Made by a program: the position numbers. Positions 30,001-36,000 of a DNA stretch of 64,000 nt are shown piece by piece. Position 1 is the stretch's first letter. The number at the start of each line of letters is the position of its first letter. The stretch comes from Planctomycetota bacterium (lineage in GTDB: Bacteria; Planctomycetota; B15-G4), in NCBI GenBank assembly GCA_038212275.1, contig JBBQUR010000003.1, forward strand, positions 160,001-224,000, given 5' to 3'.

Positions 30001-33000
30001 TCCTTGCGGTTCTTCCACGTCTTGCCGCCGATGCGGTCCAGCTTCGGGCCGCTGCCGCTCGCGCCGACGAAGCGCTCCACCAGATCGATGCGGCTGGCGG
30101 GCACGTAGAGCTTCGTGTCCTCCGCGAACTCCAGCACGAGGAAGTCCTCCTCGCCTTGCTCGCGCGGCCGGCGCTCCATGCCGGCGTAGCGCGCCACGCC
30201 GTGCGTGAGGTGCACCACGTAATCGCCCGGCTGCAACTCCGCGAGCGAGGACAGCGCCCGCGTGGCGACGACGCGCCGCGCCCGCGCGCGCCGCACCGGC
30301 CGCCGCCCGAGCAGCTCGTGGTGGTGCACGAGCACCGGCCCCGGCGCCGGAAAAGCGAAACCGCTCGCAAGCCGCCCGACGAGAAGCACCGGTGCGCGAC
30401 GTGCCGCGCCGGGGCGAGCAGAGCTTGCCGGCGTGCCCGCTTCGCTGTCCGAACCCAAGCCCGCCGCGGCGAGGCGTTCCGCGAGGCGCTCATTCTCGGC
30501 CTCGCTATCGGAGAGGATGAAGACGGCGCGGCCCTGGTCGCGCCAGTCGGCGAGGCGCTCGGACTCGGGGCGGCGGTCTTCGGCCACGCCGCGCAGTGAG
30601 CAATCGCTCTGTTCGTCGCCGAGGTCCAGAACGAAGAGATCGGCGCCGGGGCGCGTGGCGAGATCCGCGAGTGCGGCGGCCGACTCGCGCGGCGCGATGC
30701 CATGCTCGAAGGCCACTTCCGCGAGGCGGTCCTTCAGCGCCGGCGGATCCAGCAGCACGACGGCCGTGCCCTTCGGCAGTCGCGCGAGCAGGCGTCGCGA
30801 CGGGTCGCGCGGGATGTCGCCGCTGGCGTCGGGCGCGCGCGGCGCACCGCCCAGCGGCAGCTCCACGCGCGAGAGCTGCTCGACGGAGACCTGGCTGTCC
30901 ACGGCGAAGCGCCGCAGTTCCTCGAGCTCCTCGTCGTTGAACTCGAGGCGCACCGGGTGCTGCGCCGCCCACGGATAGACGTCGAGGATGTCGCCGCGCA
31001 GCGAGACCTCGCCCGGCGCGGCGACGAGCGTCACGCGCACGAGGCCCGCGGCCAGCAGCTTGTCGAGCAGAGCCTGCCGGTCGAGGCGCTCGCCGCGGCG
31101 CAGCACGAGCAGCGCGCCGTCGGTGTCGGGCAGCGTCTCGAGCAGCACCGGGCCGGGCACGACGAGCAGGCCGTCCCCGCGCGCGCCGAGCGAGGCCAGC
31201 GCGACGAGGCGCTCGCTGCGATTGGCCGCCAGCTCGGGGCCCTCGGGCAGGCCTTCTTCCTCGATGGGCAGCAGCGCGCAGGGCGTGCCCGGCAACCATT
31301 GCGAGAGGTCGAGCAGCAGCGACTCGGCGGCCTCTGCGGTCGGCGCGATGATCACGCCGCGCCCGCGCCCGGCGAGCAGTCGCGCGGCGGCCAGCGCGGC
31401 GGCGCTGCCGAAGAGTCCGCCGAGGCGCGCGCGCGCCTCGGGCCGAGCCAGCGCGGCGCGCAGCGGCGGCAGCGCGGCCAGCGTGTCGGACAGCAGCGCG
31501 AAGGCGGCGGTGCGCGCGGCGGCGAGCGCCGGCTCGTGAGCGGGCTCAGTCGGTCGCGTCATCGTCTTCCGGCGCGGCTTCGCTGGCGTTGCTCGCGTCG
31601 CTCGCGTCGCTGGCGTCGCTGGCGTCGCTCGCGTCGCCGAGGTCGCCGAGGTCCCCGCGGTCGCCGGCCTCGGCGGCATCGGCGGCCTCGGCGGCATCGG
31701 GCGCCGTGACGGCCTCGGGCAGCGCGCCTCTCGAAGCGCGCAGGCGGCGCAGGGCCTGCTGCGCCGCGCGCTGCTCGGCCTGGCGTTTGTTGCGACCGGT
31801 GGCCACGGCGAGCGAGACGCCGTTGAGCATCGCGGCCACGGTGAAGACCTTCTCGTGATCGGGGCCGGCCTCGCTCAGCACCTGGTATTGCGGAGCTGCG
31901 CCGAGCGATCCCTGCGTGAAGTGCTGCAGGTCCGATTTGTGATTGCTGCTGCGATGTCGGTCCGAGGCCGCCTCGATGAGCGGCGCGAAGTCCGCGCTGA
32001 TGATGCGGCGCACGGGCGACAGGTCGCCGTCGACGAAGACCGCGCCGAGCACGGCCTCCACGGCATCGGCGACGACGGACGCGGGCGTCCTGCCCGAGGT
32101 GCGGATGCCGGGCCCGAGCGTCAGCAGCGCATCGAGGTCCCAGTGCTCCGCGACCTTGCTGAGCGCATGCCGCGAGACCACGGCGCTCTTGATGCGCGAC
32201 AGCTCGCCCTCCTCGCGCTCCGGGAAGCGGTGGTAGAGATCCTGCGCGATGCACAGGCCCAGTACGGAATCACCCAGGAATTCCAGGCGTTCATTGGGGA
32301 GCTGCGCCTCGCTGCGCGCCGAAGCGTGGGTCAGCGCCATCGCGGCGAGGCACTTGTCGTGGAAGACGTAGCCGAGCACGCGCTCCAGCGCGGCGATGCG
32401 TTCCTCGTCGGCGGGCGTCGGCTCGGGAGCCGGCACCGCGTTGCGCGCGGCGGCGAGCCGGCGCCACTCGTCCATCGCGAAGCGGTCGGTCATGCCGGCG
32501 ACGTAATCACACACGCTTCGGCCGAGGCCGTCGCGCTCGATGCGCCTGCGATAGTCCGCGGGGAGCTGGCCCGGGTGGCCCTGGTAGTGCGTGACGATGA
32601 CGGCGATGGCCTCGCGCGCCGTGGCCGCCGAGCGCAGCACGCGCGGGTGCCGGTAGAAACGCTCCAGCAGGAAGCCCGCGAGCTGCCGATGCTGGGCGCC
32701 GCGCGCCGGCGAGAAGCGCACGAGGCGCCCCGGCTGCGCGGCGACGTCCTCGGCGTTGCGCGCGCCGCACGCCGCGAGGTGCTTGCTGGACTGCGCGACG
32801 ATGTCGTGCAGCGAGGTGCGCACGATGCGCGAGAGCACGGTCTTGCGCGCCGGCGGCACGCTGGCCGACGCGCCGCCCTCGCCGGCCGCGCGCGCCTCCT
32901 CGTCGGCCTGGCGCCAGATGTCCAGGCCCTGCAGATCCTCCTCGCGCAGGATGCCGGCGCGCAGGCCGTCCTCCAGGTCGTGGTGCTGATACGCGGTGCT

Positions 33001-36000
33001 GTCCGCGAGGTCCACGCACTGCGCCTCGAGCAGCAGGCCCGCGGAGACCGGCGCGCCGAGGCCCGCATCGCCGCCGTGCTTCAGGATGGAGCGTCGCAGC
33101 GCGTGCGTGAGGTTGAGGCCCTCGCGGTCCGGGTAGGGGCTCTCCAGCACATCGATGATGCGCAGCGCCTGGCGATTGTGATCGAAGGGCACGCCGCAGC
33201 GCTCGTCCAGGATGCGCTCGCCCTCGTGCCCGAACGGCGGGTGGCCGATGTCGTGCACCAGCGCGAGCGCCTCGCCGAGGCCCTCGTTGAGGCGCAGCGC
33301 GAGGCACAGGTAGCGCGCCATCTGCGCGACCTCCAGCGTGTGCGTCAGCCGCGTGCGGTAGAAGTCGCCCTCGTCGATGACGAAGACCTGCGTCTTGTCC
33401 TTCAGCCGCCGGAACGCCCCGCAGTGCACGATGCGATCGCGGTCGCGCACGAAGGCCGGGCGGAATGGGTCAGGCTCTTCCGCGACGGGCCGGGCGTCGT
33501 TGGCGTCGGAGAAGCAGGCGAGCGGCGAGAGCCACTCGTGCTCGCGGCGCTCGGCGTCGGTGCGGACGGAGATCTCGGGCGCTGCGAGATCGCTCCCGGG
33601 ATGGGGCGTGAGCATGGGACAGCCTCGTGGGGCTGCCCGCGGCGGGAAGCGGCCCGACATCGCCAGGTCTCGCGCCGCCGCGCCGCATGCGCGTGCCGAG
33701 CGTCAGGAGTCCGGAAGGGTCGCTTGCCGTCATGGGCAGGGCGGACAGGATAGCGCGATCGACGGGGCAGTCGGTGGTCCGGAAAGCCGCGGCAGTCCGG
33801 CCATCGGCAGGCGCAGGTGGCGGATCGCCGCTCGTCAGGTCACCTTCCGGGATGCAGGCATCCTCGATCCAGGGTCGGTGGGTGACGCACGTAGGCGGCA
33901 TCCCGGAGGTGCCCATCATGCGGCGCACCGGCCCTGACTGTGTGGCTGACGACGGCTTGCGCCTGCATGCCGGTGTCTGCGCGCCGGGTGGGCCGCGCGA
34001 GAGGATCCAGGCGCTCGTGCCCGTGCGCTGTCACGCCGGCTTCGGCTCACGCCGGGCGTGCGCTGCCTGCAGCCAGGTCCGCGTCTGCGCGTTTCCAGCA
34101 GGTTGGTGCACGTGTTGTAGCCGGCGCGGCTGATCGAGAGTTGTGCGCGCGCGAGGCACGGCAGGAAGTCGGGGCCGAAGGGCCGCAGCACGAACGGGCC
34201 GGTCGGTGGCGCCGAAGTGTTCCCCGAGGCGGGCAAATGCCGGATCGGCGTGCACGAGCACCGCGTCGAAGCCGTCGCGCGGGCTTGCCAGCACGCGCTC
34301 GTCGTCTGCGCAGGCCTCCTCCTGCCGCGTCCGCGGAGCGGCTGTCAATGCGATCGGTCGGCCGGTAGGCTCCGCGATCGCCGTGGCGCACCGATCCTTT
34401 CGCTACCTCGACAGCCGACTCCGCGTCCACGCGGATGACGAGACTCTGCGCTGGCTGGAAGAGTTCCTGACTCCGTCGTTCGTGGTGGGTGACGACGCAG
34501 GTGACGGTGACGACGCAGGTGACGGTGACGACGCAGGTGACACCGACGGGCCAGCGCGCGCGCACTGGGTCGTTCGACTGCAGCGCGATGCGGCTCGCTA
34601 CGCGGCACTCTCGGCGACCGCGCTTCACGAGGAGCGCCGGCCGCTTCCTGCCTTCGCGCTCGACACCGAGGTGCGCTGCTACCCGGGACACGTGCACGAA
34701 GGCCAGTCGGTGCTCTTCGATGAACAGGACGAATGCCTGATCCGGCTGCACGAGGACGGCGCCGACATCGTCGCGCCCCCGCACTCGGCGGGCTGTCGCC
34801 TGGCGCTGCTGCGCGTCGTGCGCGAGCTCGCCGTGCAGGCGCACCGGCGCGTGAGCGGCGGGCTGTCGCTGCACGCAGCCGCGTTCGCCGTCGGCGAGGA
34901 GGCCGTGATCGTCGCCGGCCCGAAGAACGCCGGCAAGACGACGCTGCTGGTGGACGCGCTGCGCGGCGGTGAGGCTCGCTTCATCGCGAACGACCGGGCC
35001 TTCGTCACGCTCGGCTCTCGCACGACCTCGGTTTCCGGAGTGCCCACGGTGGTGAGCGTCAGACCGGGGACGCTGGAAAAATGCCCGGAGCTGCTGCGCG
35101 GCATCGCGCGCGTGCCGCGCACGTCGCTTCACTCGCTGGAGGAGATGCGGGCTGCGCTTGCGCGGCACGAAGGCCAGGGCGGCGCGGAGCCGCTGCGGAT
35201 CTCTCCCGCGCAGTTTCTCGCGTCGCTGAAGGCGAGCGCCGTGCGCGGCGGCCGTCTCTCCGCGATTCTCGCGTGCGAGATCAGCCAGGACATCCGGGGA
35301 CACCGCCTCGATCGGCTCGCGATCGCCGACGCGACCGCCGCGCTGGAGCGCTGCCGCTACGGCAGCGGCGCGCAGCGCACCGTGTTCTCCGATCTCGCTG
35401 GTCGCGGCGAGCTGCCCGACGACACCCGCCTTGCCGGCAAGCTGGCCGGCCGGATTCCCGTCTTCCGCTGCCGCCTCGGGCGCGGCGCCTGCGCTCCGCC
35501 GGAGGGCGCTTCGGCGCTGCTGCGCGAGGTGCTGCAAGGCGTGTCGTGACGCGGCACGCGCTCGAGTCGGCGCTCGGCCGCTCGCTGGATCCCGTGCGCG
35601 CCGCATTGGGAAGCGAGGTGGTGACATGGACGCCTAACTCCCCGCTTCCGGCGGGCGGCTCGGCGCGGGCGGCGTACCGCGTGGGGCTGGCCGACGGCCG
35701 TAGCGTCAAGCTCAGGCGTCTGCGCGAGCCGAGCCAAGGGCGCCTGATCGCCGGCTGGCTCGCCGAGCTGAACGATGCGCATTTCGCGCGGATTCTGCTG
35801 CACCACGAGGACCTCCTCGTCGAGGAGTGGATCGACGGTGTGCCGCTCATTGCGGATGCCAGTCTGGCGCGCGAGCTGGCCGGGGCGCTCGATCCGGGCG
35901 CGACGGTCGCGGGTCTGTGTCACGGCGACTTCTGCGCGGAAAACATGCTGCTCGCCACGGACGGCCGGTTGCGCGTGATCGACAACGAATCCCTCGCCGT

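What a model noticed while it worked through the whole genome (the two positions that open the first line are those of the whole stretch)
31546..33615. RNase III fused to a dGTPase-like HD phosphohydrolase
The genome's only RNase III is the C-terminal half of a 689-aa protein (RNase III domain aa 420-541, dsRBD 560-625). The N-terminal half is a complete dGTP-triphosphohydrolase-like HD domain (HD 89-208, HD_assoc 299-386). I read this as a bifunctional enzyme in which a nucleotide-hydrolysing or nucleotide-sensing HD module is physically coupled to double-strand RNA processing. It would have arisen from the dgt-rnc gene pair that is adjacent in several other planctomycetes. I know of no described dNTPase-RNase III fusion; it would link RNA maturation to the nucleotide pool.
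Evidence so far: Call 86: pfam rows for g00683 are HD 5e-14, HD_assoc 7e-21, Ribonucleas_3_3 1e-25, Ribonuclease_3 2e-22 and dsrm 1e-15. Ribonuclease_3 occurs on no other gene. Call 85: 44.9% identity to a Deinococcus dGTPase-like protein over its whole length, followed by 287 extra C-terminal residues. Call 88 (121 Planctomycetota genomes including this one): single matches spanning both halves occur in this genome, in the 2 other genomes of the family that were sampled (aa 18-653 with one TGA inside; aa 14-646 with no stop) and in one genome of another family (aa 15-625, one TGA inside). Elsewhere, in the rows shown, the HD part (aa ~15-390) and the RNase III part (aa ~400-630) match separately. 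In at leas [...]
(Added by a program. Inside this text positions count along the whole contig: contig position 160,001 is position 1 of the stretch shown here. "Call 12" and the like, gene names such as g00115 and contig names such as C1 are that model's own, and its searches are not shown. The text may have been shortened before it was handed on; [...] marks where a part breaks off. The agent that wrote the report below was given it as the finding of a first reader that could run no searches.)

Follow-up and report, generated by a model that had tools for sequence, protein, structure and literature searches.

The report
dNTPase fused to RNase III
One gene really does join a dNTP-degrading enzyme to the double-stranded-RNA cutter RNase III; two neighbouring housekeeping genes merged in one family of Planctomycetota, which makes it a modest and undescribed curiosity, not a shown regulatory link.

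Summary
It carries a complete TT1383-type dNTP triphosphohydrolase (HD + HD_assoc), a linker of about 19 aa, and a complete class-1 RNase III (catalytic domain + dsRBD). It holds the only match to either family in this 91%-complete genome.

The fusion is not an artefact. 14 of 16 genomes of the family have the stop-free frame, and 49 public 90%-identity clusters share the architecture. The catalytic residues of both halves are invariant or nearly so, and both halves are under purifying selection.

It arose once. Sister families have dgt, rnc and mfd as adjacent separate genes, sometimes in frame with a single TGA between dgt and rnc.

Evidence for functional coupling is mixed. The linker varies in sequence and length, and RNase III is also fused sporadically to other partner enzymes, LepB (an E. 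coli rnc neighbour) among them. Against that, a second conserved NTP-hydrolase fusion (MazG::RNase III) exists in other bacteria.

No searchable paper describes the fusion. This scan had already found it in another genome (e1-3588793). Verdict: new variant of known kinds, moderate interest.

The parts
31546..33660 (-). Fused dgt::rnc ORF, 704 aa from the first ATG. The alternative ATG at 33615 gives 689 aa. The stop codon is 31546-31548.
   Evidence: Homologues begin near residue 28, so the true start is not settled.
32452..33579 (-). dNTP triphosphohydrolase module (aa 28-403), TT1383 / PRK01286 type.
   Evidence: TIGR01353 245.5 bits against a cut-off of 152.35, and NF002326 338.6 bits over aa 41-406.: 2dqb E 1.5e-76 over aa 52-403.: all 68 positions that are at least 90% conserved in both sets carry the same residue in fused and stand-alone proteins.
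32992..33351 (-). HD domain proper (aa 104-223), with H107, H136-D137, H140, H145, E148 and the D217-L-A-D220 motif.
32458..32721 (-). HD_assoc domain (aa 314-401), including the D385-Y..G-M-T-D392 motif.
32395..32451 (-). Linker (aa 404-422, rich in Ala, Pro and Glu). It corresponds to the former dgt 3' end, the intergenic spacer and the rnc 5' end.
   Evidence: variable sequence, linker region about 20 to 60 aa among 46 fused proteins.: junctions of unfused relatives.: dN/dS 0.05-1.29 over 15-44 codons.
31993..32358 (-). RNase III catalytic domain (aa 435-556), with N456-E457-R-L-E460-F-L-G-D464 and D532..E535.
31741..31938 (-). dsRNA-binding domain (aa 575-640).
31549..31740 (-). Acidic low-complexity C-terminal tail (aa 641-704), largely encoded by 9-nt tandem repeats at 31580-31718. 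It is not conserved in relatives.
28221..31562 (-). mfd (transcription-repair coupling factor). Its ATG at 31562 overlaps the last 17 nt of the fused gene. It is the third member of the conserved dgt-rnc-mfd cluster.
   Evidence: (TIGR00580 913.9 bits against a cut-off of 800)

Best explanation
What it is. This is a genuine gene fusion that makes one polypeptide with two housekeeping enzymes. The N-terminal part is a TT1383-type dNTP triphosphohydrolase, which splits a dNTP into a deoxynucleoside and triphosphate. The C-terminal part is a canonical class-1 RNase III, which cleaves dsRNA (for example rRNA precursors, a role known for E. coli RNase III and recalled, not tested here).

How it arose. 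It arose once, at the base of one Planctomycetota family. The stop separating dgt from rnc was lost in an older dgt-rnc-mfd gene cluster.

How it works (inferred). Both modules are still active and are joined by a flexible, poorly conserved linker. They most likely work as two independent enzymes that are simply made in equal amounts. The architecture is sterically plausible. Hexameric dNTPases are built of three parallel dimers, and RNase III is an obligate dimer, so each dNTPase dimer could present two RNase III modules to each other.

Shown versus inferred. Shown: the fusion, its spread, its single origin, residue conservation and purifying selection. Inferred: the activities, the oligomeric state and the lack of allosteric coupling.
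For: Reality of the fusion
- One open frame carries all four domains.
- Stop-free frames occur in 14 of 16 genomes of family f1, counting G000. G005 is cut by a contig end. G007 (84% complete) shows neither half, and a family search found no stand-alone RNase III in either genome.
- 49 public clusters carry HD_assoc together with RNase III domains.

Single origin from neighbouring genes
- dgt and rnc are adjacent separate genes in 5/5 genomes of f2, 12/12 of f3, 1/1 of f4 and 1/8 of f5. In 6 other f5 genomes they lie 1.5-4.9 kb apart, and in one they are on different contigs.
- G016 and G019 have the two genes in frame with a single TGA between them.
- The 14 fused rows form one clade with SH-aLRT 100 in both the HD tree and the RNase III tree. 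The 11 fused rows do the same in the control Mfd tree.
- mfd follows the pair in most of the loci examined in families f1-f4 and in four loci of other Planctomycetota.

Both modules intact
- The catalytic residues are invariant or nearly so in 46 fused proteins.
- None of the residues conserved in at least 90% of 200 stand-alone dGTPases is lost. Against 89 stand-alone RNase III sequences the only departure is position 439, which is not a catalytic residue.
- dN/dS is 0.10-0.34 for the HD half (8 pairs) and 0.06-0.44 for the RNase III half (7 pairs that could be computed).
- The gene is the sole copy of both enzymes in this genome, and most f1 genomes gave a single match to the fused protein.

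Independent action
- The linker varies in sequence and length.
- RNase III tolerates many other N- and C-terminal partners.
- Passages of PMC9257424 describe hexameric dGTPases as three parallel dimers.
Against: - No activity, oligomeric state or transcript was observed. The one RNA run laid on the gene held only short conserved fragments.
- The branch leading to the fused clade looks relatively long for the HD half: 0.88, against 0.47 for the RNase III half and 0.73 for Mfd. These were compared by eye across trees with different row sets.
- The fused HD half has its own conserved features: R190, where 71% of stand-alone enzymes have E; a small insertion at about aa 200-209; and H226, K281, H324 and H358. 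These could reflect adaptation to the fusion.
- dgt sits directly upstream of rnc in at least 7 further families of the phylum.
- An independent MazG::RNase III fusion family exists. Both observations hint at more than chance.
Confidence: 0.6

Rival explanations
1. Functional coupling. The HD module senses or hydrolyses dNTPs and allosterically tunes RNase III. Alternatively, RNA held by the RNase III module regulates the dNTPase. Either way RNA maturation is tied to the nucleotide pool, and stand-alone Dgt and RNase III would already form a complex where the genes are adjacent.
For: - dgt lies immediately upstream of rnc throughout the order.
- The same arrangement holds in 11 genomes of 7 other families (cross-matched by hand).
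- A second, independent and conserved fusion puts a nucleoside-triphosphate hydrolase (MazG) on the N-terminal side of RNase III. It comprises 15 clusters of 45-100% identity, with an uninterrupted 509-aa ORF in L126.
- Nucleic acids are known allosteric ligands of this enzyme class. ssDNA activates E. coli dGTPase at the dimer interface (PMC9257424, passages). Oligonucleotides occupy SAMHD1 allosteric sites (PMC7854603, start of abstract only).
- The fused HD half has conserved residues of its own and a relatively long stem branch.
Against: - The linker has no conserved element and ranges from about 20 to 60 aa.
- Its dN/dS is at least 0.75 in 4 of the 6 pairs where it could be computed.
- About 90% of sampled Planctomycetota genomes with both genes, outside the order, keep them apart.
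- RNase III is also fused to partners with no link to nucleotides: LepB, Fpg, GrpB and a MiaB-like enzyme. A review also reports fusions to Era (PMC10582724). lepB and era are rnc's operon neighbours in E. coli (recalled).
Confidence: 0.28
2. The HD half is a degenerate pseudo-enzyme kept only as an oligomerisation or RNA-binding scaffold for RNase III.
For: - The score is below the cut-offs of all NCBIfam dGTPase equivalogs; the best is NF002326 at 338.6 bits against 390.
- The HD half carries lineage-specific substitutions.
Against: - All metal-binding and catalytic residues are invariant.
- No residue conserved in at least 90% of stand-alone enzymes is lost.
- dN/dS is as low as in the RNase III half.
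- It is the only dGTPase-family gene in the genome.
Confidence: 0.05
3. Artefact. Two genes are read as one because of an assembly or sequencing error, or the gene is an anti-phage defence module and not a housekeeping gene.
For: - The genome is a metagenome-assembled draft, and the only run that spans the whole gene is probably its own source.
- The PADLOC dGTPase model matches at 266.6 bits.
Against: - The same stop-free frame is found in 13 other genomes and in 49 protein clusters from several sources.
- NCBIfam antiphage_dGTPase scores 186.5 bits against a cut-off of 400.
- The gene is single-copy and is inherited congruently with mfd.
- It sits in a housekeeping cluster.
Confidence: 0.03

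Closest known systems
Thermus thermophilus dNTP triphosphohydrolase TT1383 (PDB 2dqb; TIGR01353 / PRK01286 group)
   Same: Residues 52-403 align with residues 22-375 of the 376-residue chain at E 1.5e-76. The HD motif, HD_assoc domain and DY..GMTD motif are shared. The PDB entry holds 6 chains.
   Different: TT1383 is a stand-alone protein of 376 aa. Here about 300 further residues follow. The fused clade also has a small insertion near aa 200-209 and its own conserved residues. Activity was not tested here.
Class-1 bacterial RNase III (E. coli Rnc, PDB 7r97; Aquifex aeolicus, 1yyk and others)
   Same: There is one catalytic domain plus one dsRBD. Residues 423-641 align with 7-224 of 7r97 at E 3.3e-41. 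The signature NERLEFLGDS and the ADxxEA acidic residues are present. The score is above the TIGR02191 cut-off.
   Different: Bacterial RNase III is normally a stand-alone protein of about 220-250 aa. This one has a 420-aa enzymatic N-terminal extension and a 64-aa acidic tail.
Other bacterial RNase III fusions: MazG::RNase III, LepB::RNase III, MiaB-like::RNase III, PHP::RNase III, RNase III::Fpg, RNase III::GrpB (found here), and Era-RNase III in some Rickettsia (review PMC10582724)
   Same: A complete RNase III is joined to another complete enzyme. MazG, like Dgt, hydrolyses nucleoside triphosphates and sits on the N-terminal side.
   Different: The partner domain differs. None of the 71 other long RNase III proteins listed carries HD or HD_assoc. 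Whether the partner genes are neighbours of rnc in relatives was not examined here.
SAMHD1 (eukaryotic HD dNTPase with an extra domain and nucleic-acid binding)
   Same: It belongs to the same HD dNTPase superfamily. It carries an added non-catalytic domain, and its allosteric sites accept oligonucleotides (PMC7854603, start of abstract only).
   Different: SAMHD1 is a tetramer. Its extra domain is a SAM domain, not a nuclease. The sequence relation to this protein is distant and did not reach E 1e-10.

Membership tests
Class-1 RNase III (TIGR02191) | Whole-protein score above the curated cut-off | tested here: met
   200.1 bits against 166.25 over aa 426-640. 203.9 bits in the genome search.
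Class-1 RNase III (TIGR02191) | Signature motif and catalytic acidic residues (E. coli E38, E41, D45, D114, E117; numbering recalled) | tested here: met
   N456-E457-R-L-E460-F-L-G-D464 and D532..E535 align with the E. coli chain 7r97. E460, D464 and E535 are invariant, and E457 and D532 are at least 90% conserved, in 46 fused proteins.
Class-1 RNase III (TIGR02191) | One catalytic domain followed by one dsRBD, with no other domain | tested here: not met
   The catalytic domain and dsRBD are present, but they are preceded by a 420-aa HD/HD_assoc module.
Class-1 RNase III (TIGR02191) | Homodimer that cleaves dsRNA | not testable with these tools
dGTPase-like dNTP triphosphohydrolase (TIGR01353 subfamily) | Whole-protein score above the curated cut-off | tested here: met
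   245.5 bits against 152.35.
dGTPase-like dNTP triphosphohydrolase (TIGR01353 subfamily) | H..HD..D metal-binding motif and the family's conserved core | tested here: met
   H107, H136, D137, D217 and D220 are invariant. All 68 positions that are at least 90% conserved in both sets carry the same residue in the 46 fused and the 200 stand-alone proteins.
dGTPase equivalog NF002326 (PRK01286.1-1) | Score above the equivalog cut-off | tested here: not met
   338.6 bits against 390. It is therefore filed at subfamily level, not equivalog level.
dGTPase-like dNTP triphosphohydrolase (TIGR01353 subfamily) | dNTP triphosphohydrolase activity and hexameric assembly | not testable with these tools
   Inferred only, from 2dqb (6 chains) and passages of PMC9257424.
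Anti-phage dGTPase (NF041026) | Score above the curated cut-off | tested here: not met
   186.5 bits against 400. The PADLOC dGTPase model matches at 266.6 bits but has no cut-off.

The most novel reading that the evidence does not exclude
Dgt-type dNTPases and RNase III form a physical and regulatory unit in these bacteria, and the fusion is its 'Rosetta stone'. The particle would be a hexameric dNTPase core carrying three RNase III dimers. In it, dNTP levels, or single-stranded nucleic acid bound at the dNTPase dimer interface, would gate dsRNA processing, or the reverse. The independent MazG::RNase III fusion in Thermodesulfobacteriota would then point to a general, unrecognised link between nucleotide-pool hydrolases and RNase III.
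Probability: 0.15. Interest if true: 0.7.

Novelty: new variant of a known kind. Interest (0 to 1): 0.4.

Why it matters
Bacterial RNase III is textbook-simple: one catalytic domain and one dsRBD. In this family-wide case the cell's only RNase III is permanently tethered to its only dGTPase-type dNTPase. If the two modules talk to each other, that would be a new way of tying RNA maturation to DNA-precursor supply. The fused protein would then be a ready-made object for testing nucleic-acid control of hexameric dNTPases. If they do not, it is a clean, datable example of neighbour-gene fusion by stop loss. It would also show that RNase III tolerates a large, oligomeric N-terminal partner. The parallel MazG::RNase III family makes the question worth one biochemical experiment.

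Tried and rejected
No model, pTM, fold search or interface test exists.
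- ESM Atlas gave no usable hit.
- Sequencing runs. Only the probable source run spans the gene. An independent low-depth contig (X3, 32381-32692, 26 differences, two compensating 1-nt indels) covers the linker but reaches only 16 nt into the RNase III side. The RNA run X13 held only short fragments 85-95% alike. This gives no evidence on expression or habitat.
- 5' region. The fold of 33600-33900 (-) has z = -1.53, and 7 of 100 shuffles fold as well. There is no sigma-70-like promoter and no intrinsic terminator in 31300-34300. No sign of an RNase III autoregulatory hairpin was found.
- The candidate upstream gene 34047-35627 (-) has no Pfam or NCBIfam match and no tblastn match in relatives' loci. 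It was not treated as part of the unit.
It did not settle the taxonomy.
- Apparent fusions in other families. The 'open frames' of 727 and 736 aa reported for G106 and G043 contain stops, so they are not fusions.
- The defence reading and the pseudo-enzyme reading were rejected; see the rival explanations.

Full report
THE OBSERVATION

The minus strand of window 31546-33660 is one open frame of 704 codons from its first ATG. Neither ATG aligns with the starts of homologues, which begin near residue 28, so the start is not settled.

Pfam places HD at 104-223, HD_assoc at 314-401, the RNase III domain at 435-556 and dsrm at 575-640. NCBIfam scores the protein above the curated cut-offs of TIGR01353 (dGTP_triPase, 245.5 against 152.35) and TIGR02191 (RNaseIII, 200.1 against 166.25). 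It scores below every dGTPase equivalog cut-off and far below the anti-phage dGTPase cut-off (186.5 against 400).

In the window's own assembly (4.65 Mb, 40 contigs, 91% complete) there is a single place matching TIGR02191. The only TIGR01353 matches are two stretches, and both lie in this frame.

IS THE FUSION REAL?

A search of 5.8 billion proteins returned 47 cluster representatives of 54-81% identity and 531-705 aa with the same domain set, plus two contig-truncated pieces. Their sources name them 'ribonuclease III', 'dGTPase' or 'dNTP triphosphohydrolase' from Planctomycetota MAGs.

Searching with the RNase III part alone against proteins of 387-1232 aa gave 225 hits at E <= 1e-10. Of the 120 listed, the same 49 clusters were the only ones carrying HD or HD_assoc.

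A filter-free HMMER search of 1.84 billion 50%-identity representatives listed only one protein (P0048) spanning both halves among its best 150. All the others were stand-alone dGTPases or RNase III proteins. The fusion therefore belongs to one narrow clade.

One member is labelled Pseudohongiellaceae (P0046). Apart from its first five residues, which the check left out, it matches the ORF of genome G003, which the genome collection places in the window's own family. There is thus no evidence for the fusion outside Planctomycetota.

SPREAD AND ORIGIN

The window's order has 42 genomes and is also its whole class. In the window's family, f1, 14 of 16 genomes including G000 have the fused frame. 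My scripts traced frames of 641-823 aa without an internal stop in all 13 relatives.

G005 has only the HD half, cut by a contig end. G007 (84% complete) has neither half. A family search found no stand-alone RNase III in either genome.

The arrangement in the other families of the order is as follows.

| Family | dgt and rnc |
|---|---|
| f2 | adjacent separate genes in 5 of 5 genomes |
| f3 | adjacent separate genes in 12 of 12 |
| f4 | adjacent separate genes in 1 of 1 |
| f5 | adjacent in 1 of 8; 1.5-4.9 kb apart on one strand in 6; on different contigs in 1 |

In G016 and G019 (f2) the two genes are in the same frame with a single TGA between them. The same holds for G131 and G043 in other families, the latter with a TAG. 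Loss of one stop codon is therefore enough to produce the fusion. Today's linker corresponds to the old gene ends plus the spacer between them.

Quick maximum-likelihood trees of the two halves (35 rows each) put the 14 fused rows in one clade with SH-aLRT 100 in both trees. In the HD tree this clade is sister to family f5. A control tree of the neighbouring Mfd protein (21 rows) gives the same clade. Inheritance is therefore vertical, and one origin suffices.

In a sample of 151 Planctomycetota genomes at least 85% complete, stop-free fusions occur only in f1 (5 of 5 f1 genomes). I cross-matched by hand. Outside the order, dgt sits directly upstream of rnc in 11 of about 110 genomes that have both genes. 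These 11 are spread over 7 families (f7, f9, f15, f45, f49, f67, f71). Another 31 genomes showed no TT1383-type dgt at E <= 1e-20.

CONTEXT

The gene downstream is mfd (TIGR00580, 913.9 bits against a cut-off of 800). Its ATG at 31562 overlaps the last 17 nt of the fused gene. mfd follows the pair in most of the loci examined in families f1-f4 and in four loci of other Planctomycetota. The unit is therefore a housekeeping cluster, dgt-rnc-mfd. Nothing conserved was found upstream.

ARE BOTH HALVES FUNCTIONAL?

The N-terminal half aligns over residues 52-403 with the T. thermophilus dNTPase chain 2dqb (E 1.5e-76). The C-terminal half aligns over residues 423-641 with E. coli RNase III 7r97 (E 3.3e-41).

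In 46 fused proteins the following residues are conserved.
- HD half, invariant: H107, H136, D137, H140, H145, E148, D217, D220, Y224, H227, D228, D231, D385 and D392.
- RNase III half, invariant: E460, D464, E484 and E535.
- RNase III half, at least 90% conserved: E457 and D532.

Against 200 stand-alone dGTPases, all 68 positions that are at least 90% conserved in both sets carry the same residue, and no universally conserved residue is lost. Against 89 stand-alone RNase III sequences the same holds, apart from one non-catalytic position, 439.

Rough pairwise dN/dS values (NG86, with dS often near saturation) are 0.10-0.34 for the HD half and 0.06-0.44 for the RNase III half. For the linker they range from 0.05 to 1.29 over only 15-44 codons.

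I conclude that both enzymes are maintained. This is inferred from sequence. No activity was measured.

IS THERE COUPLING?

Evidence against:
- The linker has no conserved residues, and the linker region ranges from about 20 to about 60 aa.
- RNase III is also found fused to a signal peptidase (LepB), Fpg, GrpB, a MiaB-like radical-SAM enzyme and a PHP domain.
- According to passages of a review, RNase III is fused to Era in some Rickettsia (PMC10582724). From memory, lepB and era are rnc's operon neighbours in E. coli. Whether the other partners are also neighbours of rnc was not checked.

Evidence for:
- The dgt-rnc order recurs in several families.
- The fused HD half has its own conserved residues (R190, H226, K281, H324, H358) and a small insertion near aa 200-209.
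- Its stem branch (0.88) is long relative to those of the RNase III half (0.47) and Mfd (0.73). These trees have different row sets and were compared by eye, so this is weak.
- A second family joins the NTP pyrophosphohydrolase MazG to the N-terminus of RNase III. It comprises 15 clusters of 45-100% identity, with an uninterrupted 509-aa ORF in a Thermodesulfobacteriota MAG (L126).
- Passages of PMC9257424 state that hexameric dGTPases are three parallel dimers and that ssDNA activates E. coli dGTPase at the dimer interface. This gives a plausible geometry and a plausible route for cross-talk, but no more than that.

The structural tests that could have weighed these readings were unavailable.

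LITERATURE

Five full-text searches combining RNase III with dGTPase, triphosphohydrolase or HD-domain terms found no paper on this fusion. 'MazG' with 'RNase III' gave 10 papers, and none is about a fusion judging by the listing.

I read passages only of PMC9257424 and PMC10582724. I saw only the start of the abstract of PMC7854603 and PMC3190883, in the listing. I know Zhang and Inouye 2002 only through the review. No supplements were consulted.

This scan had already reported the same fusion in another genome (e1-3588793), with the same verdict. My tests were made independently and agree with it.

VERDICT

The proposed regulatory meaning is untested and at present is the less likely reading. 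This is a new domain architecture made of two well-known enzymes. It is present in public databases under routine names and is undescribed in the searchable literature. Interest is moderate.

Noticed in passing
L126 3959-5488 (+); proteins P0296, P0299, P0340-P0352: A second conserved fusion of a nucleoside-triphosphate hydrolase to RNase III. MazG (N-terminal) is joined to an RNase III catalytic domain and dsRBD, giving about 500 aa. There are 15 clusters of 45-100% identity, from Thermodesulfobacteriota / 'Deltaproteobacteria' MAGs. No paper was found on it.
   Followed up: partly
Proteins P0328, P0302, P0322, P0301, P0317, P0312, P0315, P0319, P0320, P0327: Sporadic bacterial RNase III fusions: LepB (S26 peptidase)::RNase III, MiaB-like radical SAM::RNase III, PHP::RNase III, RNase III::Fpg and RNase III::GrpB. 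Also seen were tandem RNase III proteins (P0257, P0260) and a 2391-aa protein with a ResIII helicase domain and two RNase III stretches (P0245).
   Followed up: partly
window 31580-31718: The acidic C-terminal tail of the fused protein (DAS, DLG and AEA repeats) is encoded by arrays of 9-nt tandem repeats. The tail is not conserved in relatives.
   Followed up: partly
window 31546-31562: The mfd start codon (ATG at 31562) lies inside the last 17 nt of the fused gene, in another frame. This suggests translational coupling within a dgt::rnc-mfd operon.
   Followed up: partly
G000, whole genome: No Era GTPase match reached the TIGR00436 cut-off on its own. The best place (C31) looks like a two-GTPase-domain protein. 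rnc is therefore not in the E. coli-type rnc-era arrangement here.
   Followed up: no
P0046 / L024 (G003:C35): A public record labelled Pseudohongiellaceae carries the fused ORF of a genome that the genome collection places in the window's Planctomycetota family. This is probably a taxonomic label conflict.
   Followed up: partly
Proteins P0270, P0290 and about 25 others; P0086: Many RNase III proteins closest to this one, a few labelled Planctomycetota, have 150-450 further residues with no Pfam match. These lie at the C-terminal end in the two I scanned. One dGTPase (P0086, 697 aa) has an N-terminal extension of about 370 aa with no Pfam match.
   Followed up: no
L115 (G081:C545): The rnc gene next to dgt matches in two different frames (aa 420-500 and 510-665). 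This may be a frameshift or an assembly error in that genome.
   Followed up: no
L030, L032, L035, L037: In three Omnitrophota loci and one labelled Planctomycetia, rnc lies about 5 kb downstream of dgt on the same strand. The spacing is similar to that in family f5 of the window's order.
   Followed up: no
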